In this document: in pieces, positions 22,171-36,460 of the stretch
How positions within the stretch are numbered: the first letter of the stretch is position 1
How the letters are laid out: every line of letters starts with the position of its first letter
Virus genome (UHGV): UHGV-1783985
Direction: 5' to 3' (one strand)
DNA length: 38,400 bases
Source of the DNA: a virus
Notes under the pieces: generated by a model
Told to the model about the DNA's origin: nothing
Database searches by the model: none
The model's input: only the letters and a program-made list of their open reading frames with translations
Position numbers and translations under genes: made by a program

Positions 22171-24348
22171 TTACCCTTCTACTGACTCCGTGGGGGTATC
22201 TTTTGCTCTCCGGTCGTCGATTGCCTGTAAAGCCGCAATGATTTCAGCTAGTGGCTTCTCCCGATACATCTCGACGATCTGTGATTTGGTGTATTTCTTG
22301 TCACCAATTTCTACGCGCCCGCTGGCGTTCTTTGGCAGGTATCCTTCTTCCAGCATGTACTCGACGAGCGATTCGATAACGTCGAGGCCACGAGTAGGAT
22401 CGAAGTAGAATTTCCAGGTGCATTTGCCATACGGTGGTGCAACTTTGTTTTTGATGCACTCTGCGCCTACGTCCTGACCGATCTTCTCTTTACCATCCTT
22501 CATCACCGATGCACCGAGACGGATGCGCACAGAAGCGTAAAACTTCGGTGAATCGCCACCTGGTGACGTGCAATTGTGAACGATAAATCCATTTGCCGAA
22601 TTTCCAACCATATAGTTATGGTTGTCTTCAACACCAATGTCATAACGTCGTGTTAATGTTCTCCCCGCTCCCTTTTTTACCTTGCTCTCGCGGACATCTT
22701 TGACGACCGTCCAATGTTCATAGAATGAGACTACCGGTTGCATATCATAATTATCGACGAACTTGCCACGATACTCCGAGGGGAGCTTGTACTGCATAGA
22801 ATCAAAGACAAACGATGCAATATTCTCAGCAATTATGGCGCTGGATTCCTGGTCAAAGAGGAGGCCTCCCTTACGCGCGTTAACTTTTGATCTGATGCTG
22901 AATTTGTCGTACAGGATATCGGCCAGGTTTTGGAGATACCCTCTGCCACAGTGTTTTTTAGCCTTACGTTTAAATGAAATGTCGTATCGACCTCTGCTAT
23001 CAAGATGACCGTCATCCATTACCAGTAGAGCGAAGTTTTGCCAGGAGGCAAACTCCGTAAACACTTTTAGCGGATTTCTGACATAATCCTCCAGGTCTTT
23101 AAAATCGTTGTTAACAGGAGAGTCGTGTCTAATTCCGTACTTTCCTGACATTCGACCTAAAAGAACTTTTGTCTCTGTAAATTCGCCAAATAGATTCGAT
23201 AGCTTATCCGCTTTCCACTTTGAGTAAGACGGGTTCGCATTATCCTGAAAAGCAATGCCTGCTGTGGTTCTTTCGCCTCTCATCTTTCTAAAAGCGCAGT
23301 CTCCCACTAAGAAGCCGACAACTTGAGACCTGGTTTCATTAGTTAAAACAGTTGTGCGCTTGGTAAGCAATTCATCGCCTTCAATTATGTCTTTGGCCGT
23401 AGTCCAACCACGACGAGTCAGGATGCGGTGATCCTCTGTAAATGTCGCAGCCATAACCCCGTTTTTGGTATTGTGTCCAAGCGTGCTGATGTGTATCCAT
23501 TCCTCATCATCTGGCTTGCGGCCGTTATCATGCCATTCGTTGATTTTCTTTGGCTCGATAACGCCTGACTCTTCGTTGTACGACCACACATCTTTTTCTA
23601 TTTTGTTCTCTACAATTTCTCGGATAGTTGCGCTTGTGCCATCAACGAAAGGTATTATTGCATCCCCTCTCAAACATCTATCGCCAAACATAATTCCCAG
23701 ATTTGTCCTCATCTGATTGAGGAAAATTAAACAAGCATTGTATTTACGCGCCCACAAAGCCAGAGTAGGAAAGTTCGCACTCGTCGCACGCGCCAGCGCC
23801 GTATTGTCGTTCATGTTTAGCTGATCTTTGTCTTTGGCAGTGCCTTCAGCCATCTTTTCGAACTTCTCGGCTTTGGAGTTCGGAACCATAGACGCAAGTG
23901 AGTCAGCCACGATACAGATAGGTGCTGATTCAGGGATAAGCTCTTCATCACGTACCAATTTAAGTATTGTGCCGATCAACTCTACAGAGTCTTCGAAGGT
24001 ATCAGGCTGCTTGTATACCCACTGACCGTCATCCTCATCTGCGTTCAGGCCATTGGCGACAGCCAGGCCAACATCAAAACTGTTCTCATGATCGAGGAAT
24101 ACCGCCAGACCATCTTGTTTCTGAGCGGATATCATTGCTGCTGTTGCCAAAAAGGTTTTCCCCGCGCTTGGCGGCCCGAATACTTCTACGATACGACCAC
24201 ATGGGAAACCGCCATCGTAACGACCGGAAATAGCTTTGTTTAACGGAGGAAAGCCTGTGTCAATCCAATGAGTTACTTTCTGAATTTCGTCGTTGCTACC
24301 GATTTTCTTTTTCAGAGCAAGTGCCAGTGCGGATTTTCCTTTTGCCAT
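22171..24348 (-). CDS. RecA/UvsX-family recombinase interrupted by an intein
   Basis: 725-aa ORF. N-extein has Walker A GPPSAGKT; junction ...GIMFGDR | CLRGD...FIVHN | CTSPGGDSPKFYASVR. Spliced extein (about 357 aa) restores the RecA motif MFG-x6-GG-x3-KFYASVR. Confidence 0.8.
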   Translation of the reverse strand: MAKGKSALALALKKKIGSNDEIQKVTHWIDTGFPPLNKAISGRYDGGFPCGRIVEVFGPPSAGKTFLATAAMISAQKQDGLAVFLDHENSFDVGLAVANGLNADEDDGQWVYKQPDTFEDSVELIGTILKLVRDEELIPESAPICIVADSLASMVPNSKAEKFEKMAEGTAKDKDQLNMNDNTALARATSANFPTLALWARKYNACLIFLNQMRTNLGIMFGDRCLRGDAIIPFVDGTSATIREIVENKIEKDVWSYNEESGVIEPKKINEWHDNGRKPDDEEWIHISTLGHNTKNGVMAATFTEDHRILTRRGWTTAKDIIEGDELLTKRTTVLTNETRSQVVGFLVGDCAFRKMRGERTTAGIAFQDNANPSYSKWKADKLSNLFGEFTETKVLLGRMSGKYGIRHDSPVNNDFKDLEDYVRNPLKVFTEFASWQNFALLVMDDGHLDSRGRYDISFKRKAKKHCGRGYLQNLADILYDKFSIRSKVNARKGGLLFDQESSAIIAENIASFVFDSMQYKLPSEYRGKFVDNYDMQPVVSFYEHWTVVKDVRESKVKKGAGRTLTRRYDIGVEDNHNYMVGNSANGFIVHNCTSPGGDSPKFYASVRIRLGASVMKDGKEKIGQDVGAECIKNKVAPPYGKCTWKFYFDPTRGLDVIESLVEYMLEEGYLPKNASGRVEIGDKKYTKSQIVEMYREKPLAEIIAALQAIDDRRAKDTPTESVEG
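22573..23676 (-). mobile_element. Intein with LAGLIDADG homing-endonuclease domain inside the recombinase gene
   Basis: Residues 225-592: starts with Cys (CLRGDAIIPFVDG), ends HN followed by Cys+1; internal LAGLIDADG-like motifs VGFLVGDCAF and LLVMDDGHLD. Codon boundaries checked against the sequence. Confidence 0.75.
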
Positions 24349-27326: not shown

Positions 27327-30300
27327 TCACGTCTTAATAGTTTCTGCTACGTCGGCTAATATCGCTTCTAGTCGTTCCCCCTCTTCAGGTCTGAAGTAAA
27401 GAATGTTGGGGTTAAACCCGTAAAAGACAGTAACGTCAAGGTCTGGAAGATACTCCTTCCTGCCGACCAAATCGGATGGCTTGTTTTTGTTGTTAAACAA
27501 TGCCGTTGCCCGGCTGCCACACGTCAGCACATAGGTCGGACGCACCAGATTGATCTCTTCACGCATAAAGTCGGTGAACTGGCCGATCTCGTCTTTGGTG
27601 TAGTCCTTTTCTTTGTCTTTCATCTTTTTGCAAACGCCTGTGACATAGATATCGCCCATGCGCAGATCTCCAGCCGTCAACAGCTTGGCCTTAAAATCGT
27701 CGTATCCGTTCTCCATGAAGTAACCGGTTCGAGCATCATTACCGTTTGCATTGTCCAGAATGATCATGATTTTCGGCTTAATACCAATGCTGGGGCGGAT
27801 TAGTTCATCACCTAAGCTCATTTCAGCCGCCATCCGTGTCATGAGCACGTTAATCTCAGCCGAACGTTTGGGGTTCATCTCAAACGGACGTGAGGCTTTA
27901 ACTGCATCTATGACAAGGTTTCCCATCAATTCTGCCTGGTCGCGGAGACGCTCTGGATCAGTTGCTGGCAGACTACCTGGCTCTATGGATGCAAACGCAC
28001 CTACTTTTTGCAGTGATTCGCGCACTCGACTATTACAGGAACGTTTCTCGACAGCTTCTTCGAATTGCGCCAGTGACTCGAATTTGCCGCCAACTTTTTC
28101 TCGCGCTCTCATGATGGCTTGGCAGCCATTCTCAGAACACCCCTTCACAGCAGAGAAGGGCGCATACAGCACCTGGCTGCCATCTTCAAGCGTGCGGATC
28201 TCGATTCGGTTAGATGACACGTTAACGTCTGGTGGCAATACGCGAATACCATAGGTCAGCGCATCTTTAACCAGCCCCTGGTGTTTATCTTCGCCAAGAA
28301 TAGTGAGAGCAGCAGCGAAAAACTCTGCGGGATAATGAGTTTTCAACCACATAGATTGATAACTGATTAAGGAGTAAGCAACAGAGTGTGATTTGTTGAA
28401 CTGGTAGGCACCATTTTTCTCGAATGCAGTCCAGATCTCCTTCGCCTTCATCTCTGATAGCCCTGGATGTGACGCTGTAACGCGTACTGCGTTTATAGGT
28501 AGTTTTGCTCCGTGCTCAAGTGCTTCTTCGACAGTTTTCAGGGTTCCGTCTTCGCATTTAAAATGTTCCGCACGGTGAATGCGCTGTGTAGTGCCATCTT
28601 CCAGCTCAACGTCTATCCAGCCAGCTTGAGCCTGAACGATGAACTTCTCGCCCATGCTCTTCATTTTTTCCATGTTCTTCTTACCGATTGCGGAACGCAC
28701 ACCGTCAGCTTCAGCCATTGTGAAGCCAGCAAGCAATCGAGTCGCGTTCATCGTCTGTTCCTGATAGAGAATCACGCCATTTGTTTCTGCGGTAAGTTCA
28801 TCAAGAACGGGGTGTAATGATTCCGGCGTCATAAAGCCTTTGGCGACAGAAACATAATCATCCAACATGCCTGACTGAATTGGTCCCGGCCGGAAGAGCG
28901 CAGTCGTAGCAACAACCGTTTTAAAGCTCATTGGCTCAATTCCACCACCTAAATCTTTAAGCAGCTTGCGCATTGGGCCTGATTCAAGCTGGAAAACACC
29001 TTGAGTGTACCCAGCAGCAAAACCATCCAGCACCTTGCGATCTTCAAGAGATATGGCATCAAGATTGATATCTTCACCTGTGTTCTCTTTAATGTAGCGT
29101 TTTGCACTATCGAGCAAATCGAGAGTTGCCAGGCCAAGCACGTCCAGCTTAATTAGGCCCATAGCCTCGCAGTAACGCTTGTCAAATGCGATACAACGCG
29201 CGTCACCACGTCGTTCAACCGGTGTACGTTCTGTCAGAGGAACACCTGCTACGATCATCCCTGCCGCATGTCTACCAAAGCCACGCATAAGGCTTTGTAA
29301 CTTGCAGGCTGCATTGAATGCATCAGGGTATTTTGTCGCGTATTTGTCGAGACTTGCCAGTTGTTCGCGCAGCTCCTCCAGTGGAAGGCTATCATCCTCG
29401 ACGTTCTTCAGTTCTTTTGATACCGCCATATCTGCGGACTCCACACCATAAATACGAGCAGTGTCACGTAGTGCAGAGGCTGCGCCCAGATATGTGAAGT
29501 TCGGAATGCCTGCAACGTAATCTTCGCCGTAGCGTTCATTCAGATACTCGATCACCTCATGGCGACGTGCCTGGCTGAAGTCCAAATCCGCATCTGGCAA
29601 GTCGAGACGCTCAGGGTTGATGAAACGTTCAAACAGAAGACCGTGACGGATAGGGTCGACGTTGGTTATGCCTATGCACCATGCCACCAGAGAGCCAGCA
29701 GAGGAACCACGACCAGGCCCGACAGGAATGCCAGTTTCACGGCTGTGATTCATCAGATCGCGTACCATCAGGAAGTAACCACAGAATCCCAGGCGAGTCA
29801 GCGTATCCATTTCGTACTTAAGTCGCTCAACATAAACCCTGTTCTCAGAAGCCGGTGGTGTGTAGCCAAACTCTTTTGTGGTAAGACGTTTACGCAGCCC
29901 AGCAACGGCCAGTTTCATCAGAGTTGCAGGCTCGTCGTCTGCCATCTTTGGCAGTGCTGGTGGCAATTCATGCCAGCGCCATGTGCAGGCATCGATAATG
30001 GTATCCTGCGTTGTTGAGGCCATTGCAGCTGTTACCGGCACATCCATGCGAACGGAGAAGGCTTTAAGCGCCTCAAGGAGATGGCGGCGACCATTGACGG
30101 CGTTATCTCGCTGGTGGGGGATACGCAGACGATGCGGCTGGTCGATTTTGATGTTGTTCGTAACCATGTGCGCAATGTCTTTAATGTCTGCATCGTCGAT
30201 CGATTCGTAATAAGCGGGATAAAACGCTACTGGCTCTATTTTCAGTGCGCTGGCGACTTTCATCGCCCGGACGTTAATCTGGTCGTAGAATGGGGTAGGG

Positions 30301-30845
30301 TGCGGATAAATCACACTATAGAAGTTGTCTTTTCCACCCGCTGTAATCAATGTGCTTATGATTTTTGCAAAATCGTTGCGTTGGAACACGCTACCGATGT
30401 CGGAAGTTAGCAGGATGATGTTGCCTTTGGCATATGTAGAAACCAACTGTTCGAGCGAGAGACGCGGTACAAAGTAGAACTGTTCTCGTGTGTTGGCCGC
30501 CGTCATTAGTTCGCAGATGTCTCGATATCCCTGCTCATTTTTAATTAGAGCGGTAAAGGAGTAGTTCCGCCCACGCTCTAATGATTCCATACATCCCATA
30601 GACTCTTTAGCAAGTTTAGCCCGGTGCTCGTATGTGGGATCATCAACAATGTTTAGTTTCACACCACAAATAACCGCCATGTCGTCACCAGCGGCACGTT
30701 GTAGTGGAATAACACTCGCAATATTCATGCTATCTGCCGAAATTACAGCGGTGTAGCCAGCTTCTCTGGCAATCTTCACCGCGTTTTCTGCTTTTAGAGC
30801 CGACTCCCCAAGAGAGAAGTCAGTTCGAACCATCAGAGCCTTCAT
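27327..30845 (-). CDS. dnaE: DNA polymerase III alpha-type replicative polymerase (DnaE family)
   Basis: 1172-aa ORF; size and overall layout match the DnaE family; the N-terminal PHP-like region (MVRTDFSLGESALKAENAVKIAREAGYTAVI) lacks the canonical His pair and may be degenerate. Confidence 0.8.
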   Translation of the reverse strand: MKALMVRTDFSLGESALKAENAVKIAREAGYTAVISADSMNIASVIPLQRAAGDDMAVICGVKLNIVDDPTYEHRAKLAKESMGCMESLERGRNYSFTALIKNEQGYRDICELMTAANTREQFYFVPRLSLEQLVSTYAKGNIILLTSDIGSVFQRNDFAKIISTLITAGGKDNFYSVIYPHPTPFYDQINVRAMKVASALKIEPVAFYPAYYESIDDADIKDIAHMVTNNIKIDQPHRLRIPHQRDNAVNGRRHLLEALKAFSVRMDVPVTAAMASTTQDTIIDACTWRWHELPPALPKMADDEPATLMKLAVAGLRKRLTTKEFGYTPPASENRVYVERLKYEMDTLTRLGFCGYFLMVRDLMNHSRETGIPVGPGRGSSAGSLVAWCIGITNVDPIRHGLLFERFINPERLDLPDADLDFSQARRHEVIEYLNERYGEDYVAGIPNFTYLGAASALRDTARIYGVESADMAVSKELKNVEDDSLPLEELREQLASLDKYATKYPDAFNAACKLQSLMRGFGRHAAGMIVAGVPLTERTPVERRGDARCIAFDKRYCEAMGLIKLDVLGLATLDLLDSAKRYIKENTGEDINLDAISLEDRKVLDGFAAGYTQGVFQLESGPMRKLLKDLGGGIEPMSFKTVVATTALFRPGPIQSGMLDDYVSVAKGFMTPESLHPVLDELTAETNGVILYQEQTMNATRLLAGFTMAEADGVRSAIGKKNMEKMKSMGEKFIVQAQAGWIDVELEDGTTQRIHRAEHFKCEDGTLKTVEEALEHGAKLPINAVRVTASHPGLSEMKAKEIWTAFEKNGAYQFNKSHSVAYSLISYQSMWLKTHYPAEFFAAALTILGEDKHQGLVKDALTYGIRVLPPDVNVSSNRIEIRTLEDGSQVLYAPFSAVKGCSENGCQAIMRAREKVGGKFESLAQFEEAVEKRSCNSRVRESLQKVGAFASIEPGSLPATDPERLRDQAELMGNLVIDAVKASRPFEMNPKRSAEINVLMTRMAAEMSLGDELIRPSIGIKPKIMIILDNANGNDARTGYFMENGYDDFKAKLLTAGDLRMGDIYVTGVCKKMKDKEKDYTKDEIGQFTDFMREEINLVRPTYVLTCGSRATALFNNKNKPSDLVGRKEYLPDLDVTVFYGFNPNILYFRPEEGERLEAILADVAETIKT

Positions 30846-31025
30846 GTGTTTTTACCTTTCTGGTTTTTTTGATTTTGTCATTGGGGAAGCCTACGAACTT
30901 CCCATGCATCGAAATCGCAACTTCTTTTGCTGATTGGTGACAATCGGGCTTGTCTGGACATACCAGACAAGCCTTACCAGTTTCAGAAGCAGCGATAAGA
31001 GAGCCGAAACATCCTTTACGCACGA

Positions 31026-33308
31026 TTAACCAAATATTTTTTGAACAACTTCACGTGCCGCTTGCGCAGAAGCTGAAGGGAGTTTGTTAATGAAAGAACG
31101 CTCAATACCTGTCACAAAATCGCCTCGCATCATTCCAATCTTGGCCGACAACAAAAGCTCACGAGGCCCAATTGGTTGGCTAATATTGTGTTCTTCGTAT
31201 CCATCGCGAACGATACCGGCAAACTTAACCATCTTTTCAGCGTATTCATCCACAATGCCGGCATTTATCAACATGTTGATCTCTGCCTCTTTGCTCATGT
31301 ATTTCACATTCGAAACGATGCCAAAACGCGAAAAGTTCGCGGCGTTCTGGATGTTTGTACCCTGGTACAAGCCGGTTTCATCACCAGATCCGTTCGTGTT
31401 GCCAGTGCCAATGAAAGCAAACCGTTCATGCGGAGTAATGCGACGCCATTCTGGAGTCGCCTCTTTGATGACCAACGCTTCACCTTCCAGCACTGGCTGA
31501 TACACGCCAAGAATTTGTGGAAACGCAAAGTCGTATTCATCCGCGAGGTAAACCCAGCCATGCTTCATTGCGAGCGCAAGCAAGCCAGGTTCGAAATACG
31601 TAGAGCCATCACGCGCCAGAATTTGCCCCGTAACATGTGCCTCTTCCATTGATGCTGTATGTTGGGCACGGATCAACGGGCGATTGAGCAAAGCACATAG
31701 CTGTGTAGGCAGAGTTGTATTGTGCGTAACGATAAACTCTTCGGTGATGTACAGTTCATCATCTGCGCTTACTTTTATACATATGCACTCAGCCTCGCCA
31801 TCTTCCTCGATAGAGGTGATAAATCTGCTTGGCGGATTCTTGGTAGATGGAGACCAGTTTTTGGATTTCCGATCAGCGGAAAATGGGTTAATGAACATTT
31901 TCACGTTAATATCAGCATAGTAACCGCTCTTATGACGTTCTGCGGCTCCATCTTTTACTATCGCAGTTCCGCCTAAAGACTGAACAAGAAACTTCACACA
32001 TGCAGCCAGCTTTTCAGACGTGGTGGAGAAGTTTGTACGGTTTTGTCTCACGCTTCCGTCTGTATCCATCAGTCCTCGGAGTAAAGCGAGGCGATTTTCA
32101 GTGGAGTCGAAGAGATATTCATCTGGGATAAATTTTTCCCCTGATTGCACATTCAAACCCAGCCGTTTAATCTCATCCATCATTCTGTTTTGACGGAACT
32201 TTTTGCAGTCGATGATATTAAATTGCCGCCCGTTTTCACTCGTGTTTCTGAGCTTGCTGGTGCGCATACCATCAGGAAGAAGAGAATCGATTCTTCTCTT
32301 GATATCAATGTCTTCCGTACCCACGCTCATTGCTGGCGTGTTCCCTAATAAGTAACCGTCTCCAATTAACGCACCTAATAAATAGGGATGGATGAGATGT
32401 TCCTGCGAGGGCCACTCGACAGCTTTAGTTAAAGGAACTTTGAACTTGCACTGACCACCAGAATTTCTGATTCCCAAGTCAATCATTTCTTTGGTCGTTC
32501 TGATTTTTGCATGTTGCTTGTAGCTCTTGCCGTTTTTGGTCTTGTATTCATGTGTAGGTAGGATATGCCAAAGATGTTCGCCGCAAGCTCGTGTGCTAGA
32601 ACCATCTCTAAAGGTGATGCGATAAATTGGCTTAATCCCTTGTGGGAAGATGCCTGTTATCTTTGTGGACTTTCCGTTAGATCCGAATACCTCATCACCA
32701 ACTTTCAAATCACCAAAGCGCACCATCCCTCTTGGTGTTGGGATTAGCGTATCTACTGGCTGGGCCTTGCCTGTTCCTGCATGACCCCACAAATAGCCAG
32801 GTATGCCAAGTTCAAGCATCATGAAAATATCTTTGATCAGTTCGAAGTCGCCATATACGTAGCCCTTCTTCACTTCGGGAACGAACTCTGGAAACGGCGT
32901 ATTGACGTTGACGCTAACCATGAGCGGCGTCCCACGTTTTGTTCCGAGTTCTTCCACCGTTACGTTTAGCAGTTCGTGAGCTGCGACCAGATCTGTCTTG
33001 TACTCAACTGTGCCTGTGTAGCCTGGGCTACTGGTCACGCCAGAAGATTTGGCCAGTTCGCTTTTTTGCTCGGCACGTTTAGCTTGAATTGCATCAAGTG
33101 CCTTTTTCGATAGCGTTGGCTCATCTGGAAACTGCGTTGTGTACATTTTCAGTACGGTGTCAGGGTCGGAATCTTTTACTGACTCAGGAATGCCCTCACA
33201 ATTACCATTGGCTACATGGGACTTAAAATAGTGAAATGATTTGCCGCACCACTTGCAAACAAGGTAATCAGAAGGATTTTTTTCATTTTGCAGTGCAGTA
33301 GTCGTCAT
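31026..33308 (-). CDS. CobS/MoxR-like AAA+ ATPase interrupted by an intein in the P-loop
   Basis: 760-aa ORF; junction ...GYLWGHAGTGK | AQPVD...IVTHN | TTLPTQLCALL. Spliced product (about 411 aa) restores Walker A GHAGTGKTTL; N-terminal Cys-rich segment CKWCGK...H...C. Confidence 0.7.
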   Translation of the reverse strand: MTTTALQNEKNPSDYLVCKWCGKSFHYFKSHVANGNCEGIPESVKDSDPDTVLKMYTTQFPDEPTLSKKALDAIQAKRAEQKSELAKSSGVTSSPGYTGTVEYKTDLVAAHELLNVTVEELGTKRGTPLMVSVNVNTPFPEFVPEVKKGYVYGDFELIKDIFMMLELGIPGYLWGHAGTGKAQPVDTLIPTPRGMVRFGDLKVGDEVFGSNGKSTKITGIFPQGIKPIYRITFRDGSSTRACGEHLWHILPTHEYKTKNGKSYKQHAKIRTTKEMIDLGIRNSGGQCKFKVPLTKAVEWPSQEHLIHPYLLGALIGDGYLLGNTPAMSVGTEDIDIKRRIDSLLPDGMRTSKLRNTSENGRQFNIIDCKKFRQNRMMDEIKRLGLNVQSGEKFIPDEYLFDSTENRLALLRGLMDTDGSVRQNRTNFSTTSEKLAACVKFLVQSLGGTAIVKDGAAERHKSGYYADINVKMFINPFSADRKSKNWSPSTKNPPSRFITSIEEDGEAECICIKVSADDELYITEEFIVTHNTTLPTQLCALLNRPLIRAQHTASMEEAHVTGQILARDGSTYFEPGLLALAMKHGWVYLADEYDFAFPQILGVYQPVLEGEALVIKEATPEWRRITPHERFAFIGTGNTNGSGDETGLYQGTNIQNAANFSRFGIVSNVKYMSKEAEINMLINAGIVDEYAEKMVKFAGIVRDGYEEHNISQPIGPRELLLSAKIGMMRGDFVTGIERSFINKLPSASAQAAREVVQKIFG
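31719..32765 (-). mobile_element. Intein (Ala-1, candidate class 3) with LAGLIDADG homing-endonuclease domain inside the AAA+ ATPase gene
   Basis: Residues 182-530: begins with Ala, ends THN with Thr+1; Trp in block-B-like ACGEHLWHIL, Cys in block-F-like ECICIKV, Thr in terminal VTHN (WCT arrangement); LAGLIDADG motifs LLGALIGDGYL and LLRGLMDTDGSV. Codon boundaries checked. Confidence 0.6.
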
Positions 33309-33403
33309 GCGTTTTTCCTTTGTTCTCTAATGAGCGTTCAACCTCTTATATAAATATACCATTAACTATCGTAAGTGGTTACTTATCGTTAAGGCTGTTT
33401 TAT

Positions 33404-35512
33404 TCACTTCAAAATGATACGAGATAGTTCAGTAACTACAGATGAACCAAGACTATCAACGCTCGTTACCAGGGCATGATTTGAGTAAAATCTCTCCGGT
33501 GCGTCAGTCATGATGCCAATTGCCATCAAATCAATGTCAGTCTGCGTTTCAATTTGCTTCGCAACCGAACGCAAATGAGCGTCAAACCCTCTCCCAACAG
33601 CCCACGGCGCGCCATCACTCAGAACAAGCATGATCTTCCTGTCCTCCATGCGACCGGAAAATAACGATGCAAGGCTGGCTATACTTTCACCATCCACGTT
33701 ATTAAGAAGTGGGAATGTGTAGCCTACGCACCCCATACGTGAGCGAACTTCGCGAGAATTTACCTTTTCATTCCAATTTTTGATGATAGGTAGCATTAAA
33801 GACTCAAAGCGAGAGAACTCATACTTGACAGCCTTAAGTTCTCCTGCCGCCATATGACTACCAAATGTAGTGAAGCCGGTGATAATGTTGGGAACATTTA
33901 TTCGATCAAGGGCATCGGCGATGGTATATGCACTTGCAAGAGCCAATTGTATCGTTATACCACACATTGAACCTGATAAATCAATCACTTGTTGAACACA
34001 GGCGTTAACGGCTTTAGATTCTTCTTTTTTACGAAACACGCGATCATCATTCATTGCTAATCTGTAGATACTAGAACCATGAATGCGCCCCCGACGCTGG
34101 CCCGGTATAAACTGAACTCTGTTTCTGCTTGCTATTGCTCGCTCCAGGTCTTTTGCCAGCGTCGACGAAACACCTGACGAAAGATGCTTTTCAATATATT
34201 TGTCGAAGAGCTGGTTGCCTTCAGGAACGATGCGATAGCGGCTGATTGGATATCCTCCTAAATCAATATCGGAGAATGTTTTAATAAGCCGTTTGATATG
34301 GGCTTCTGCCTGATCAATCGAGCCGATGAAGTCGTATGAGCGATTGTATGGCCTGTATTCGCTTTTCGAGCTTTCTGTTAACTCGCTTTTAATCGTTTCG
34401 GATATAGCATCTTCTGTCATGCCTCCGACTTCATCTTCTATGCTATCCAGCTCCTCTAAAGCCTCTTCCAGACTCATTTTTGACGGAGTTGGAATATCTG
34501 AAGAGCCGTCTTCTGTCGTTTTTCTTTTTTCGTGGTCAGCGGTTAATGATTCTGACGCCGCGTTATCAGAAGCATCAGAATCTGATACCTCTTTATCATT
34601 TTCTGTATCATCGAATATTGTTTCTGATGATTCAGAATTATCTGAATCATTACTGTCGTTATTATCATGTTTGTGCTTACTGTGTGATTCTGATTTGATA
34701 GATTTGTGATTATCTAACGATGAGGGTGTCTCATGATCTTCGTTATCTTCATTGTTTTCTCCAGAGGCATCCGTCTGGTCAGCGTCTGAAGGATCGGAAG
34801 TTTTTCCCGGAGCTGACTCCTTACCTTTGCTTTCGCTTTCAGTGTCTTTGAGGATCTTAGCTATGGTCGCAGCCACCTTTACACAATCCTCGGTGCAAGA
34901 CATGTTACGCACGGCCACATCGATACCATGTTCTTTTAATAATGAAATTGGTTTCTCAATGACAGGCCAGTATTCATCCATGAAATCTACGAACGGTGCT
35001 TGGCCATCCCAGGCTCTTACAACCGGACAGAGAAAGAAGTTTAGAAAAAGCGCGCGCTGATCTTTGCCACAATAAGCAATAGCCTCTGAAGCCTTTGGTT
35101 TAAAGACTTTTCCGATTATAAGGCGCTGAGTTGCCATCAGATTACGTCTCGTTCCGTTAAAGACCTGCCCCATTTTTCGCTCGATGAACACGTCTTCTAA
35201 GGCATTCCATAGCGACCAGGAAGGAACGCGTCCTTTTTCTCTCATTTTGTTGGACACACGAATATCGGTAAACAAAATGTGAGCAACCTCATGATCGAGA
35301 AATCCGCGCACAGCATTCATCAATGCCGGTGTTGCGTTATCCGGGATTGATGGGATGTTTACGAGAATTGGCTCTCCATCATCGTTATAGCGTACATAAG
35401 CGTCGTCCCCTCGTTCTGCAACAGGGATGTTTTTACCTGAAAGGAGAGCGACTACTCGTTTTACACTGTCACGGAAGTCCTGAACCTCTTTGATGGAACG
35501 TTTTTTAGACAT
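33404..35512 (-). CDS. vWA-domain protein (CobT-like partner of the AAA+ ATPase) with long acidic low-complexity insert
   Basis: 702 aa; C-terminal vWA-like block (VIDLSGSM, ITGFTTFG, VLSDGAPW); central 130 residues are S/D/E/N-rich (SDPSDADQTDASGENNEDNEDHET...). Confidence 0.65.
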   Translation of the reverse strand: MSKKRSIKEVQDFRDSVKRVVALLSGKNIPVAERGDDAYVRYNDDGEPILVNIPSIPDNATPALMNAVRGFLDHEVAHILFTDIRVSNKMREKGRVPSWSLWNALEDVFIERKMGQVFNGTRRNLMATQRLIIGKVFKPKASEAIAYCGKDQRALFLNFFLCPVVRAWDGQAPFVDFMDEYWPVIEKPISLLKEHGIDVAVRNMSCTEDCVKVAATIAKILKDTESESKGKESAPGKTSDPSDADQTDASGENNEDNEDHETPSSLDNHKSIKSESHSKHKHDNNDSNDSDNSESSETIFDDTENDKEVSDSDASDNAASESLTADHEKRKTTEDGSSDIPTPSKMSLEEALEELDSIEDEVGGMTEDAISETIKSELTESSKSEYRPYNRSYDFIGSIDQAEAHIKRLIKTFSDIDLGGYPISRYRIVPEGNQLFDKYIEKHLSSGVSSTLAKDLERAIASRNRVQFIPGQRRGRIHGSSIYRLAMNDDRVFRKKEESKAVNACVQQVIDLSGSMCGITIQLALASAYTIADALDRINVPNIITGFTTFGSHMAAGELKAVKYEFSRFESLMLPIIKNWNEKVNSREVRSRMGCVGYTFPLLNNVDGESIASLASLFSGRMEDRKIMLVLSDGAPWAVGRGFDAHLRSVAKQIETQTDIDLMAIGIMTDAPERFYSNHALVTSVDSLGSSVVTELSRIILK

Positions 35513-35610: not shown

Positions 35611-35823
35611 TTAACAGATTCTGACGGCTAAAGACCCGGAGCCGGTATTGAGAAGCGTGAAGCGTTTGTTGTTAAGTTCGAATATAAAGCCAGTTGTGTC
35701 ATTCAAACCAACCTGAATCTGCTCATTCGGAAGATCGGTGAGGATGTCAGCTACACACTCATCAGCTAATTTCTGTACGTGTCCGGTCTCAAGAGCGATT
35801 AGGCTGGAAATAGTGGTTTTCAT
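35611..35823 (-). CDS. Hypothetical small protein
   Basis: 70-aa ORF. Confidence 0.4.
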   Translation of the reverse strand: MKTTISSLIALETGHVQKLADECVADILTDLPNEQIQVGLNDTTGFIFELNNKRFTLLNTGSGSLAVRIC

Positions 35824-36073: not shown

Positions 36074-36460
36074 ATGTCTGAAAACAAAATTGAATTTATT
36101 GAAAGTCGCTATGCTGCTGTTATTGCAGGGCTGATTGAATCCTCATCTATGAGTCAGGCACAAATAGCCAGACTTATTGGTTATAAAAATGCCAACAACC
36201 TTTCTTTAATTAAAAGTGGCAAAATTCCTTTGCCTATCGATAAGGTTCGTCCGCTGGCGCTGGCACTGGATATTGAGCCAAGTCGCCTTATGATGATGGT
36301 TCTGGAAGAACGCCAACCTGAACTCGCAGCATTTTTATACAAAGAAGGCACCGCTCCTCTTAACGAGGACGAAAAACAGGTTCTTGCTGCATATAACGAG
36401 CGATTCGGTAAAGAGAAAGGCGCATCACAAAAGGTTGTTGAGGCCATAAAGTCTCTATGA
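36074..36460 (+). CDS. Helix-turn-helix transcriptional regulator (XRE/Cro-CI-like)
   Basis: 128 aa on the plus strand; HTH-like segment SQAQIARLIGYKNANNLSLIKSGK; convergent with and overlapping the integrase stop by 6 nt. Confidence 0.6.
   Translation: MSENKIEFIESRYAAVIAGLIESSSMSQAQIARLIGYKNANNLSLIKSGKIPLPIDKVRPLALALDIEPSRLMMMVLEERQPELAAFLYKEGTAPLNEDEKQVLAAYNERFGKEKGASQKVVEAIKSL

What the first reader, a model, noticed from the sequence alone, without database searches (positions are those of the whole stretch)
31026..35512. CobS-like AAA+ ATPase plus vWA (CobT-like) pair with long acidic disordered insert
An AAA+ ATPase followed by a vWA protein resembles chelatase/MoxR-vWA pairs whose role in phages is unresolved. 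The vWA protein has a roughly 130-residue Ser/Asp/Glu/Asn-rich low-complexity segment, unusual for chelatase subunits. The pair sits next to the replicative polymerase.
Basis: inference. Interest (0 to 1): 0.5.

Follow-up and report, generated by a model that had tools for sequence, protein, structure and literature searches.

The report
Intein-split CobS/CobT-like phage ATPase pair

Summary
The two ORFs exist, both on the minus strand: CobT-like vWA protein (33404-35512, 702 aa), then CobS-like AAA+ ATPase (31026-33308, 760 aa), a 67-aa ORF, then DnaE. The window is an SSU5/pHCM2-type E. coli phage-plasmid, 98% identical to phage Cyrano.

The acidic low-complexity segment is real (aa 223-386, 30% D+E, net charge -36) but not unusual. 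Genuine CobT has a ~90-aa, ~50% D/E disordered linker, and every relative of this protein has one.

It sits in the Walker A loop (GHAGTGK|A…THN|TT). It is absent from 219 E. coli plasmids, 4 phages and 72,556 plasmids. It is present at the same site in Xenorhabdus relatives.

Both proteins are homologues of solved CobS and CobT but score far below NCBI's equivalog cut-offs. Gene order is reversed. The CobT-like N-domain keeps an HExxH…E motif that genuine CobT lacks. No CobN is encoded by the phage, and E. coli has no de novo B12 pathway. The order T→S→replication genes recurs in distant phages.

The likely role is a motor/adaptor acting on a non-CobN client in early replication. That function is inferred, not shown.

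The parts
33404..35512 (-). CobT-like adaptor gene (702 aa): zincin-like N-domain, acidic linker, shaft-like segment and vWA/MIDAS domain
   Evidence: Pfam CobT E=7.9e-27 and CobT_C E=2.1e-82. phrog_1576 E=4.7e-301. A family profile matches solved CobT 9uka at E=2.4e-38 over the C-terminal half. NCBIfam equivalog TIGR01651 scores only 66 bits against a cut-off of 759.
34847..35512 (-). CobT-like N-domain (aa 1-222) with HEVAH (aa 74-78; nt 35279-35293) plus E106 and E111
   Evidence: The domain alone matches Pfam CobT at E=6.6e-21. H74, E75, H78, E106 and E111 are invariant down to 31-36% overall identity. The motif is absent from genuine Rhizobium CobT and from phage hairong. The AF2 model has pLDDT 75.8, but fold searches were inconclusive.
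34355..34846 (-). Acidic low-complexity linker (aa 223-386)
   Evidence: 30% D+E, 56% D/E/S/N, net charge -36. In relatives the length is 149-253 aa and identity is 21-48%, against 75-80% in the flanking domains of the close relatives. It is the counterpart of the disordered linker of about 90 aa in solved CobT.
33404..34354 (-). C-terminal half (aa 387-702): conserved shaft-like segment (aa 457-504; nt 34001-34144) and vWA domain with MIDAS D511-x-S513-x-S515 (nt 33968-33982) and D633
   Evidence: Aligned to CobT residues 325-618. D511, S513, S515 and D633 are invariant, as are G471, G475, R476, H478, R491-R494 and K496. The shaft and MIDAS of CobT are defined in the preprint.
31026..33308 (-). 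CobS-like AAA+ ATPase precursor gene (760 aa; mature 411 aa after protein splicing)
   Evidence: AAA_5, LAGLIDADG_3 and Hom_end in Pfam. phrog_249 E=1e-98. The intein-less allele matches solved CobS 9ujv at E=1.8e-25. TIGR01650 scores 87 bits against a cut-off of 558.6. The exact protein is found on 3 public contigs.
32766..33308 (-). N-extein (aa 1-181): N-terminal extension with C18-x2-C21-x4-H26-x4-H31 and the first part of Walker A (GHAGTGK)
   Evidence: Alignment with the 411-aa Cyrano protein. The CCHH-like motif occurs in 96 of 113 full-length homologues and not in genuine CobS.
31719..32765 (-). Class 3 intein (349 aa; precursor aa 182-530) with a LAGLIDADG homing endonuclease (motifs LLGALIGDGYL and LLRGLMDTDGS)
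   Evidence: Exactly absent from Cyrano and from 219 E. coli plasmids. It has A1, H64, W66, C329 and T347-H348-N349, with Thr at +1. W, C and T are 99-100% conserved in 106 related P-loop inteins. Homologous inteins sit at the same site in Xenorhabdus elements.
31026..31718 (-). C-extein (aa 531-760): rest of Walker A (TT…), Walker B D590/E591, sensor 1 N637, Arg finger R661, sensor 2 R716
   Evidence: Alignment to solved CobS, with motif residues as named in the preprint. Positions were computed. Six of 8 nt at the junction differ from Cyrano, changing SS to TT.
30820..31023 (-). 67-aa ORF between the ATPase gene and dnaE (overlaps the dnaE start)
   Evidence: phrog_6337 E=7e-46. Small ORFs occupy the same position in relatives.
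27327..30845 (-). DnaE-type DNA polymerase III alpha (1172 aa), next gene of the same transcription unit
   Evidence: Pfam PHP, DNA_pol3_alpha, finger and HHH_6. Synteny is conserved in distant relatives. No minus-strand terminator-like site lies between 35512 and 27327.
35611..35823 (-). 70-aa ORF, first gene of the leftward unit, just upstream of the CobT-like gene
   Evidence: phrog_2627 E=1.2e-39. ORFs of 60-78 aa occupy the same place in relatives.
36074..36460 (+). Divergently transcribed HTH repressor-like gene (immunity region bordering the operon)
   Evidence: Weak HTH_19 and HTH_37 matches. Annotated 'putative repressor' in Cyrano. The same arrangement occurs in relatives.

Best explanation
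The locus is the viral form of the CobS/CobT motor-adaptor pair. It is carried as the first long genes of the early DNA-replication operon of an SSU5/pHCM2-type E. coli phage-plasmid.

Shown:
- The CobS-like gene is interrupted in its Walker A loop by a mobile class 3 intein. The translated 760-aa precursor therefore has no intact P-loop.

Inferred from class 3 intein chemistry:
- Block-F Cys329 (intein numbering) attacks the K181-A182 bond.
- The N-extein is passed to Thr+1.
- Asn349 cyclises.
- A 411-aa ATPase with GHAGTGKTT is released, together with a free 349-aa intein.
- The intein's LAGLIDADG endonuclease cuts intein-less alleles and copies the intein into them by homing.

Inferred from homology to the solved CobST complex:
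- The spliced ATPase forms a hexameric ring.
- The ring engages the conserved shaft-like segment of the CobT-like protein.
- The vWA/MIDAS face of that protein holds a client.
- The acidic linker is a flexible tether to the N-domain.

Inferred from context:
- The client is not CobN and the product is not cobalamin.
- The module more probably remodels, metal-loads or processes a phage or host protein needed for early replication or nucleotide metabolism.
For: Identity of the element:
- 98% DNA identity to Escherichia phage Cyrano and to about 110-kb plasmids in 219 of 5,426 E. coli genomes.

Homology of the pair:
- Pfam and PHROG matches.
- Solved CobS at E=1.8e-25, with Walker A/B, sensor 1, Arg finger and sensor 2 all aligned.
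- Solved CobT at E=2.4e-38, including the shaft region and MIDAS.

Intein:
- A precise 1,047-nt in-frame insertion relative to Cyrano.
- A1, W66, C329, T347-H-N and Thr+1 fit the published class 3 definition. These residues are 99-100% conserved in 106 relatives, nearly all inserted after a P-loop GK.
- Both LAGLIDADG motifs are intact.
- Six of 8 nt are changed at the junction; corrected P is about 7e-6.
- Homologous inteins occupy the same site in Xenorhabdus elements, at 63-68% identity.
- The exact precursor is present in independent public assemblies.

Not a chelatase here:
- Equivalog scores are 66 against 759 and 87 against 558.6.
- Gene order is T then S, whereas Rhizobium has cobS then cobT.
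- No CobN and no B12-dependent enzyme is annotated in the first 100 kb of Cyrano's 108-kb record that was read. Its ribonucleotide reductase is annotated as alpha and beta subunits, taken here to be the B12-independent class I type. It also has ThyX and DHFR.
- E. coli needs about 30 heterologous genes, including cobNST, to make B12.

Link to replication:
- The order integrase, repressor, small ORF, CobT-like, CobS-like, DnaE, gp32, 5'-3' exonuclease, RecA is conserved down to 44% CobS identity.
- Ligase, CobT, CobS, DnaE in Pseudomonas phage hairong.
- 'Peptidase' (CobT-like), cobS, gp45/gp44/gp62 in a T4-like cyanophage.
Against: - No experiment on any viral CobST was found, so the function rests on gene neighbourhood and on the absence of CobN.
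- Auxiliary metabolic genes are often interspersed in the replication regions of T4-like phages, so the cyanophage neighbourhood is weak evidence.
- Splicing and endonuclease activity are predicted from motifs only.
- The ring/shaft mechanism is carried over from one preprint on a bacterial enzyme.
- The CobT-like N-domain does not align to genuine CobT_N by hhalign or phmmer. Only Pfam's profile links them.
- AF2 of the full protein failed, with pLDDT 35.7.
- The host range of this element could include bacteria that have CobN.
Confidence: 0.55

Rival explanations
1. The pair is a true auxiliary metabolic cobaltochelatase motor. The viral CobS and CobT bind the host's CobN and raise cobalamin synthesis for the phage, as proposed for archaeal and bacterial tailed viruses.
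For: - Liu et al. 2021 make this proposal for the viral cobST cluster. The ICP2 paper suggests a metabolic benefit.
- Both proteins are clear CobS and CobT homologues with intact ATPase, shaft-like and MIDAS elements.
Against: - E. coli has no de novo pathway and needs heterologous cobN, cobS and cobT.
- No CobN and no B12-dependent enzyme is annotated in the 100 kb of the sister phage that was read.
- Scores are far below the CobS and CobT equivalog cut-offs.
- Gene order is reversed.
- The N-domain of genuine CobT, which contacts CobN in the preprint, is not detectably aligned to the phage N-domain outside Pfam's profile.
Confidence: 0.1
2. The CobT-like protein is an active zincin metalloprotease delivered by the AAA+ ring. 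The pair would then be an ATP-driven processing or degradation machine for a host or phage protein, for example in host takeover or anti-defence, rather than a chaperone or metal loader.
For: - HEVAH plus E106 and E111 are invariant across relatives with only 31-36% overall identity and are also present in a cyanophage homologue annotated 'peptidase'.
- The motif is lost in genuine CobT.
- phrog_459 'peptidase' matches aa 72-126.
- The preprint reports that CobT_N resembles an M48C peptidase domain.
Against: - Phage hairong has SEIAK at this position yet keeps the pair and its synteny.
- No PADLOC match and no other defence-related match.
Confidence: 0.2
3. The interrupted ATPase gene is a dead allele. 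The insertion has inactivated it, and this phage-plasmid does without the motor.
For: - The allele is rare: 0 of 219 E. coli plasmids and 3 contigs, against more than 1,000 member sequences for the intein-less cluster.
- The Walker A loop is physically split.
Against: - The ORF is uninterrupted over 760 codons.
- Every residue that defines class 3 splicing is present.
- The exteins are 99% identical to the functional-looking allele.
- The same intein at the same site persists in Xenorhabdus elements whose exteins have diverged to 68% identity. That is expected for a splicing intein and not for a pseudogene.
Confidence: 0.07
4. The vWA protein is a virion or tail-associated structural protein (an adhesin-like vWA), and the ATPase is an assembly chaperone.
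For: - vWA domains often mediate adhesion.
Against: - The genes lie in the early replication unit next to the repressor. In Cyrano they are at 43-46.6 kb, and the structural and lysis genes occupy 0.1-28 kb.
- Their neighbours are polymerase, SSB, exonuclease and RecA in all relatives examined.
- The best homologues are cytoplasmic CobT proteins.
Confidence: 0.03

Closest known systems
Aerobic cobaltochelatase motor CobS/CobT (CobNST; solved structures 9ujv, 9uka, 21vt; TIGR01650/TIGR01651)
   Same: - AAA+ (AAA_5) ATPase with all nucleotide-binding motifs.
- A partner with an N-domain in Pfam CobT, an acidic disordered linker, a shaft-like segment and a vWA/MIDAS domain.
   Different: - Scores are 8- to 11-fold below the equivalog cut-offs.
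- Gene order is T then S rather than S then T.
- The ATPase lacks the CobS_N motif and has an N-terminal extension of about 140 aa with a C-x2-C-x4-H-x4-H motif.
- The CobT-like N-domain keeps HExxH…E, which CobT lacks.
- The linker is longer and richer in Ser and Asn.
- There is no CobN partner in the phage or in E. coli.
Viral cobST clusters already described (Vibrio phage ICP2 ORF41/42; T4-like cyanophage cobS plus 'peptidase'; haloarchaeal tailed viruses)
   Same: - A two-gene CobT-like and CobS-like cluster in tailed viruses. It has been noted since 2011 and is called widespread in 2021.
- 480 phage records carry a CobS-like gene.
- Same T then S order, HExxH and acidic linker in cyanophage Syn33.
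   Different: - Here the host lacks the pathway altogether.
- The pair heads a DnaE-based replication operon of a temperate phage-plasmid.
- The ATPase carries an intein.
MoxR-class AAA+/vWA pairs (CbbQ/CbbO, NorQ/NorD, midasin)
   Same: Sequence similarity of the ATPase to CbbQ (5c3c, E=4.8e-6), NorQ (9qh4, E=0.0015) and midasin AAA modules (E about 1e-11). Each has a vWA/MIDAS partner and the general logic of client remodelling or metal insertion; this part rests on established knowledge of these families.
   Different: - Much closer to CobS and CobT than to these pairs.
- The partner has the CobT-specific N-domain and linker.
Class 3 P-loop inteins of phages and actinobacteria (for example mycobacteriophage TerL1-a, DnaB; Kelley et al. 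2016)
   Same: - No nucleophile at position 1, and the Trp-Cys-Thr triplet in blocks B, F and G.
- Insertion between the invariant Lys and the Ser/Thr of Walker A.
- A LAGLIDADG endonuclease.
- 33-46% identity to inteins in PhoH, RecD-like helicases, AAA_24, RecA and TerL.
   Different: The host protein is a CobS-like AAA+ ATPase. No paper in the searchable library mentions an intein in CobS or in SSU5-type phage-plasmids.
CobS-like intein alleles of Xenorhabdus SSU5-like elements (P0361 on NJCW01000016.1; X. hominickii NZ_NJAI01000009.1)
   Same: - Same insertion point (GHAGTGK|AQP…THN|T).
- Same class and same endonuclease type.
- 63-68% intein identity and the same operon.
   Different: - Exteins are only 38-68% identical, and there is no detectable DNA similarity.
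- In E. coli elements this allele is the exception.
- A third, unrelated class 1 intein sits three residues upstream in another homologue, P0371.

Membership tests
Aerobic cobaltochelatase subunit CobS (TIGR01650 equivalog) | Score at or above the curated equivalog cut-off (558.55 bits) | tested here: not met
   87.1 bits for the intein-less allele and 75.1 bits for the precursor.
Aerobic cobaltochelatase subunit CobS | AAA+ motifs: Walker A, Walker B, sensor 1, Arg finger, sensor 2 | tested here: met
   All are aligned to solved CobS 9ujv (motif residues). Positions in the precursor are G175-K181 with T531, D590/E591, N637, R661 and R716. Walker A is contiguous only after splicing.
Aerobic cobaltochelatase subunit CobS | CobS_N N-terminal motif (PF12556) | tested here: not met
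   Present in Rhizobium CobS (E=1.5e-16). Not reported for the phage protein, which instead has a CCHH-type extension.
Aerobic cobaltochelatase subunit CobT (TIGR01651 equivalog) | Score at or above the curated equivalog cut-off (759.05 bits) over the full length | tested here: not met
   66 bits, and only aa 297-697 are matched.
Aerobic cobaltochelatase subunit CobT | Architecture: CobT N-domain, disordered acidic linker, shaft, vWA with MIDAS | tested here: met
   Pfam CobT and CobT_C. Linker composition. Shaft-like segment and DxSxS…D invariant.
CobNST holoenzyme | A CobN subunit and the substrate hydrogenobyrinic acid a,c-diamide available in the cell | tested here: not met
   No CobN-sized ORF in the window other than DnaE. 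None is annotated in the first 100 kb of Cyrano's 108-kb record. E. coli needs heterologous cobNST and about 30 genes. E. coli genomes were not searched directly for cobN.
CobNST holoenzyme | ATP-dependent cobalt insertion activity | not testable with these tools
   Needs a biochemical assay.
Intein (HINT splicing element) | In-frame insertion absent from orthologues, ending in His-Asn and followed by Ser, Thr or Cys | tested here: met
   A 349-aa insertion relative to the 411-aa Cyrano protein: …THN|T.
Class 3 intein | No nucleophile at position 1, and the Trp (B:12) - Cys (F:4) - Thr (G:5) triplet | tested here: met
   A1, W66 two residues after block-B H64, C329 and T347. These are conserved at 99-100% in 106 related inteins. 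The definition is taken from PMC5050341.
Class 3 intein | Splicing through a block-F branched thioester | not testable with these tools
   Needs expression of the precursor and of C329A and N349A mutants.
LAGLIDADG homing endonuclease | Two LAGLIDADG motifs with acidic catalytic residues | tested here: met
   Pfam LAGLIDADG_3 E=9.1e-9 and Hom_end E=1.8e-5. Motifs …IGDGY… (D136) and …DTDGS… (D234, D236) are present. Cleavage was not tested.
SSU5/pHCM2-type phage-plasmid | About 100-115 kb element with both phage and plasmid modules, carried as a plasmid | tested here: met
   98% identity to Cyrano and to plasmids in 219 E. coli genomes, all on plasmids. RepA (Rep3_N) is in the window. ParA, terminase, capsid and tail genes are in Cyrano.
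Known anti-phage defence systems (PADLOC) | Match to any PADLOC model | tested here: not met
   No family at E<=0.001 for either protein.

The most novel reading that the evidence does not exclude
Viral CobT-like/CobS-like pairs are not chelatase parts at all. They would be a distinct ATP-driven machine of the phage replication module. In it, a CobS-like ring bearing a CCHH motif (a possible zinc site) pulls on the shaft of an adaptor whose N-domain is still an active zincin (HExxH…E) and whose MIDAS face holds the client. The machine would process or metal-load a replication or nucleotide-metabolism protein such as DnaE's PHP domain or NrdB. In this phage the activity would additionally depend on splicing of a mobile class 3 intein, which could make it conditional.
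Probability: 0.15. Interest if true: 0.7.

Novelty: new member of a known kind. Interest (0 to 1): 0.4.

Why it matters
The finding as written is ordinary. Viral cobST pairs have been known since 2011, and the acidic linker is a family trait. Two points go beyond it.

1. This window holds a natural E. coli-hosted intein polymorphism. An intein-bearing CobS-like allele and hundreds of 97-98% identical empty-site alleles exist in a genetically tractable phage-plasmid. A second rare intein sits in RecA of the same element. That is a convenient system for studying homing, co-conversion and class 3 splicing, although inteins in the P-loops of phage ATPases are not surprising in themselves.

2. The comparison sharpens an open question: what do viral CobS/CobT do in hosts without CobN? 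Several observations argue against the usual 'cobalamin auxiliary gene' annotation:
- both proteins fail the equivalog cut-offs;
- gene order is reversed;
- the HExxH and CCHH motifs are retained;
- the genes recur next to replication genes in three phage lineages.

They also point to E. coli phage-plasmids as the place to test it.

It also exposes a misannotation. Cyrano labels the genes as DMB phosphoribosyltransferase and cobalamin synthase, through a clash with the Salmonella CobT and CobS names.

Tried and rejected
- AF2 of the full-length CobT-like protein with a 10-sequence alignment failed (mean pLDDT 35.7, pTM 0.25). It says nothing about disorder or domains.
- phmmer of the N-domain against PDB, and hhalign of the family profile against Rhizobium CobT, aligned only the C-terminal half.
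- The promoter and terminator scan showed no enrichment: 12 promoter-like sites against 13.9 expected.
- PADLOC gave no match, so a defence-system reading was dropped.
- The intein search in the 5.8-billion-protein index returned nothing above 46% identity. It missed both the window's own protein and the Xenorhabdus alleles. These came only from the exhaustive representative search and the genome scan, so 'no close relative' would have been a wrong conclusion.
- The two longer CobS-like hits P0159 and P0160 were checked as possible intein carriers. They have long N-terminal extensions instead.
- A free-standing endonuclease gene, a group I intron or a mere domain insertion were rejected. The insertion is in frame, has the HINT blocks and ends in HN|T.

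Full report
**What is at the coordinates**

The interval 31026-35512 is filled by two minus-strand ORFs: 33404-35512 (702 aa) and 31026-33308 (760 aa). In the direction of transcription the order is:
- a 70-aa ORF (35611-35823);
- the 702-aa protein;
- the 760-aa protein;
- a 67-aa ORF (30820-31023);
- a 1172-aa DnaE-type polymerase (27327-30845).

An HTH repressor-like gene (36074-36460) is transcribed divergently, with an integrase gene beyond it. The 702-aa protein matches Pfam CobT (E=7.9e-27) and CobT_C/vWA (E=2.1e-82). The 760-aa protein matches AAA_5 but also LAGLIDADG_3 and Hom_end. In PHROGs its residues 175-534 match intein-bearing terminases, helicase loaders and primases, and only residues 531-759 match the 'porphyrin biosynthesis' ATPase family.

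**Where the window comes from**

The region is 98% identical to Escherichia phage Cyrano, CMS-2020a and PhiR41_1. These are about 108-kb phages. It is equally close to plasmids of roughly 100-130 kb in 219 of 5,426 complete E. coli genomes, always on plasmids. Cyrano has terminase, capsid, tail and lysis genes together with ParA and RepA, and the window has a Rep3-type initiator. This is an SSU5/pHCM2-type phage-plasmid.

All of those relatives cover only 76% of the query, in two pieces. The Cyrano ATPase is 411 aa. The alignment shows a single clean 349-residue insertion after GHAGTGK: GHAGTGK|AQPVD…EEFIVTHN|TTLPTQ, against GHAGTGKSSLPTQ in Cyrano. The insertion therefore splits the Walker A loop between the invariant Lys and the Ser/Thr. 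Kelley et al. call this the classic P-loop intein site.

The element has the class 3 signature:
- Ala at position 1, not a nucleophile;
- the block-B His (H64) with Trp two residues later (W66);
- a block-F Cys (C329);
- T347-H348-N349 at the end;
- Thr at +1.

In 106 full-length related inteins recovered from public proteins, position 1 is Ala in 86. W66, C329 and T347 are conserved at 99-100%. The +1 residue is Thr in 86 and Ser in 19. Most of these inteins follow a P-loop GK. This matches the published definition of class 3 inteins: no nucleophile at A1 and the WCT triplet at B:12, F:4 and G:5. Two LAGLIDADG motifs (LLGALIGDGYL and LLRGLMDTDGS) are intact. The ORF is uninterrupted.

The predicted chemistry is inferred from the class, not shown here:
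- Cys329 attacks the K181-A182 bond.
- The branched thioester is resolved by Thr+1.
- Asn349 cyclises.
- A 411-aa ATPase with GHAGTGKTT is released.

**How rare the intein is, and where it came from**

The intein DNA is absent from all 219 E. coli plasmids and the 4 phages, which match only its flanks. It has no blastn match in 72,556 plasmids. The exact 760-aa protein is nevertheless on three public contigs. The two that were read, from a Logan and an ENA assembly, are 100% identical to the window over 8.3 kb. It is therefore not an artefact of this window.

The word-indexed protein search found nothing closer than 46% identity. The exhaustive representative search did better. It found a 773-aa CobS-like protein (P0361) with a 68%-identical intein at exactly the same site, followed by the same TTLPTQ. 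P0361 lies on a 110-kb contig with the same operon. A genome scan found a 63%-identical copy in a 769-aa CobS-like gene of Xenorhabdus hominickii. A third homologue (P0371, 731 aa) has an unrelated Cys1 intein three residues upstream, at GHAG|C…HN|TGKS. The CobS-like P-loop has thus been invaded more than once.

Against Cyrano the exteins differ at 36 of 1,236 nt. Six of those differences fall within 8 nt at the junction: AAA|TCGTCATTG becomes AAG|ACAACTCTG, changing Ser-Ser to Thr-Thr. The corrected probability is about 7e-6. This is what a short co-conversion tract from a homing event would look like, or selection for a site immune to the endonuclease. The donor is not either Xenorhabdus allele, because their flanking DNA differs.

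**The acidic segment**

Residues 223-386 of the 702-aa protein are 30% Asp+Glu, against 12% elsewhere, and 56% D/E/S/N, with net charge -36.
- The solved 637-residue CobT has 'a linker of ~90 residues' that is disordered in every cryo-EM map.
- That linker's sequence, visible in the alignment, is almost pure D/E/S.
- A genuine Rhizobium CobT, encoded next to cobS, has 45 D+E and 3 K+R in its most acidic 100 residues.
- Among 16 relatives of the phage protein the linker is always present (149-253 aa) and always acidic (24-42% D+E, net -23 to -79). It is poorly conserved, at 21-48% identity, whereas the flanking domains of the close relatives are 75-80% identical.

What is conserved is the property rather than the sequence, as expected for a flexible acidic tether. 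The window's linker is at the short end of its own family.

**How close the pair is to real CobS/CobT**

The intein-less ATPase matches solved CobS at E=1.8e-25. Walker A, Walker B, sensor 1, Arg finger and sensor 2 are all aligned. More distant matches are midasin, CbbQ and NorQ. A profile of the phage CobT-like family matches solved CobT at E=2.4e-38 over residues 325-618. That stretch includes the segment which forms the 'shaft' inserted into the CobS ring, and the MIDAS motif. The corresponding phage residues are among the most conserved in the family: G471, G475, R476, H478, R491-R494, K496, D511, S513, S515 and D633. The motor-adaptor mechanism is therefore probably shared.

Membership in the enzyme family is another matter:
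- NCBI's equivalog models give 87 bits against a cut-off of 558.6 for CobS, and 66 bits against 759 for CobT. The CobT match covers the C-terminal half only.
- Gene order is T then S, whereas Rhizobium has cobS then cobT.
- The ATPase lacks the CobS_N motif. It has an N-terminal extension of about 140 residues carrying C-x2-C-x4-H-x4-H. This motif is present in 96 of 113 full-length homologues and absent from genuine CobS.
- The CobT-like N-domain matches Pfam CobT on its own (E=6.6e-21). It keeps an invariant HEVAH plus E106 and E111. At the homologous position Rhizobium CobT has SMALR and Pseudomonas phage hairong has SEIAK. Cyanophage Syn33's 'peptidase' has HEVGH…LEDARIE.

The preprint says CobT_N resembles an M48C peptidase domain. 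My structural test of this was inconclusive.

**Why it is probably not a cobalt chelatase here**

The third subunit, CobN, carries the substrate and contacts both CobT domains. No ORF of CobN size other than DnaE exists in the window. None is annotated in the first 100 kb of Cyrano's 108-kb record; the last 8 kb were not read. Cyrano's nucleotide-metabolism genes there are annotated as ribonucleotide reductase alpha and beta subunits, ThyX and DHFR. None of these needs B12, taking the reductase to be the class I type. E. coli has no de novo pathway, and making B12 in it required cobN, cobS, cobT and about 30 heterologous genes. The proposal that viral CobST hijacks host CobN therefore cannot apply in this host as far as can be told. 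I did not search E. coli genomes for cobN directly.

**Context**

The order integrase, repressor, small ORF, CobT-like, CobS-like, (small ORFs), DnaE, gp32-type SSB, 5'-3' exonuclease, RecA is kept in elements whose CobS-like protein is only 44-51% identical. These come from metagenomes, a Photobacterium genome and Xenorhabdus. Pseudomonas phage hairong (37% identity) has primase, ligase, CobT, CobS, a hypothetical gene, then DnaE. In the T4-like cyanophage Syn33 the CobT-like 'peptidase' and cobS sit directly upstream of gp45, gp44 and gp62.

No minus-strand terminator-like site separates the genes in the window. That scan is weak evidence. The association with replication genes recurs in three lineages with two different polymerase systems. 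It remains inference by neighbourhood, and the cyanophage case is weakened because metabolic genes are commonly interspersed there. No defence-system model matches.

**Verdict**

- The finding as written is a correct sighting of a known viral gene pair, described in ICP2 in 2011, in cyanophages, and as 'widely encoded' in 2021.
- Its headline oddity, the acidic insert, is a normal family feature.
- The unreported feature is the class 3 intein in the ATPase's P-loop. It is rare in E. coli elements and allelic with copies in Xenorhabdus elements.
- No paper in the searchable library links inteins to CobS or to SSU5-type phage-plasmids. That library is incomplete.

Identity of the parts is secure. 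Splicing, homing and the ring-shaft mechanism are inferred from strong homology. The biological role, a non-cobalamin function tied to early replication, is the best-supported reading but is unproven.

Noticed in passing
window 22171-24348 (-); intein about 22573-23676: The RecA/UvsX-like gene (725 aa) carries a second, unrelated intein: Cys1…HN|Cys+1 with a LAGLIDADG_2 endonuclease, inserted at MFGD(R)|…|(C)TSPGG. Cyrano's RecA (779 aa) is intein-free at this site but has a different class 1 intein in its P-loop (GPPSAGK|C…HN|T). Distant relatives have RecA of 335-344 aa with neither. The window's RecA intein DNA has no match in 5,426 E. coli genomes.
   Followed up: partly
L001/L010 (Escherichia phage Cyrano OV696614, 43137-46576): Cyrano annotates the CobT-like gene as 'dimethylbenzimidazole phosphoribosyltransferase' and the CobS-like gene as 'cobalamin synthetase'. 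Those are the functions of the unrelated Salmonella CobT and CobS, so this is a gene-name collision. The annotation is wrong.
   Followed up: yes
window 33215-33257 (-), aa 18-31 of the ATPase: C-x2-C-x4-H-x4-H (CKWCGKSFHYFKSH) in the N-terminal extension of the CobS-like protein. It is conserved in 96 of 113 full-length homologues and absent from genuine CobS. It may be a zinc-binding site; its role is unknown.
   Followed up: partly
window 35279-35293 (-), aa 74-78 of the CobT-like protein: An invariant HEVAH with E106 and E111 (a zincin-like signature). It is shared with the cyanophage 'peptidase' homologue, and lost in genuine Rhizobium CobT and in Pseudomonas phage hairong.
   Followed up: partly
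L034 (IncC/IncR plasmid NZ_MG252895.1, 89516-91312): More than 700 conjugative plasmids match the query. Those sampled, including this IncC plasmid, encode a 598-aa 'VWA domain-containing protein' whose first 187 residues are 34% identical to the CobT-like N-domain. In this plasmid it sits after ssb, bet, a lambda-exonuclease gene and DUF3150, with yfaE nearby and no AAA+ partner annotated.
   Followed up: partly
window 27327-30845 (-), aa about 920-1171 of DnaE: The C-terminal quarter of DnaE matches separate PHROGs of unknown function (4335 and 13175). In relatives the same region carries a Pfam UDG (uracil-DNA glycosylase-like) hit, so the polymerase seems to be fused to a UDG-like domain.
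   Followed up: no
window 31026-31718 (-), extein nt 1074-1103 of the spliced gene: A second cluster of 7 substitutions within 30 nt relative to Cyrano, including N359 against L. It suggests patchy recombination among phage-plasmid alleles independent of the intein.
   Followed up: no
proteins P0241-P0360: The CobT-like family splits into very many single-member 90% clusters of lengths 684-790 aa, because the linker varies in length and sequence even among E. coli and Salmonella elements. The linker evolves fast by expansion and contraction.
   Followed up: partly
tool behaviour: The word-indexed protein search with the intein returned neither the window's own protein, which is in the collection, nor the 68%-identical Xenorhabdus intein. 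'Best hit 46%' from that tool alone would have been misleading.
   Followed up: yes
window 30820-31023 (-): A conserved 67-aa ORF (phrog_6337) with a Cys-rich stretch (CLVCPDKPDC) lies between the ATPase gene and dnaE and overlaps the dnaE start by 26 nt. It is not annotated in Cyrano.
   Followed up: no
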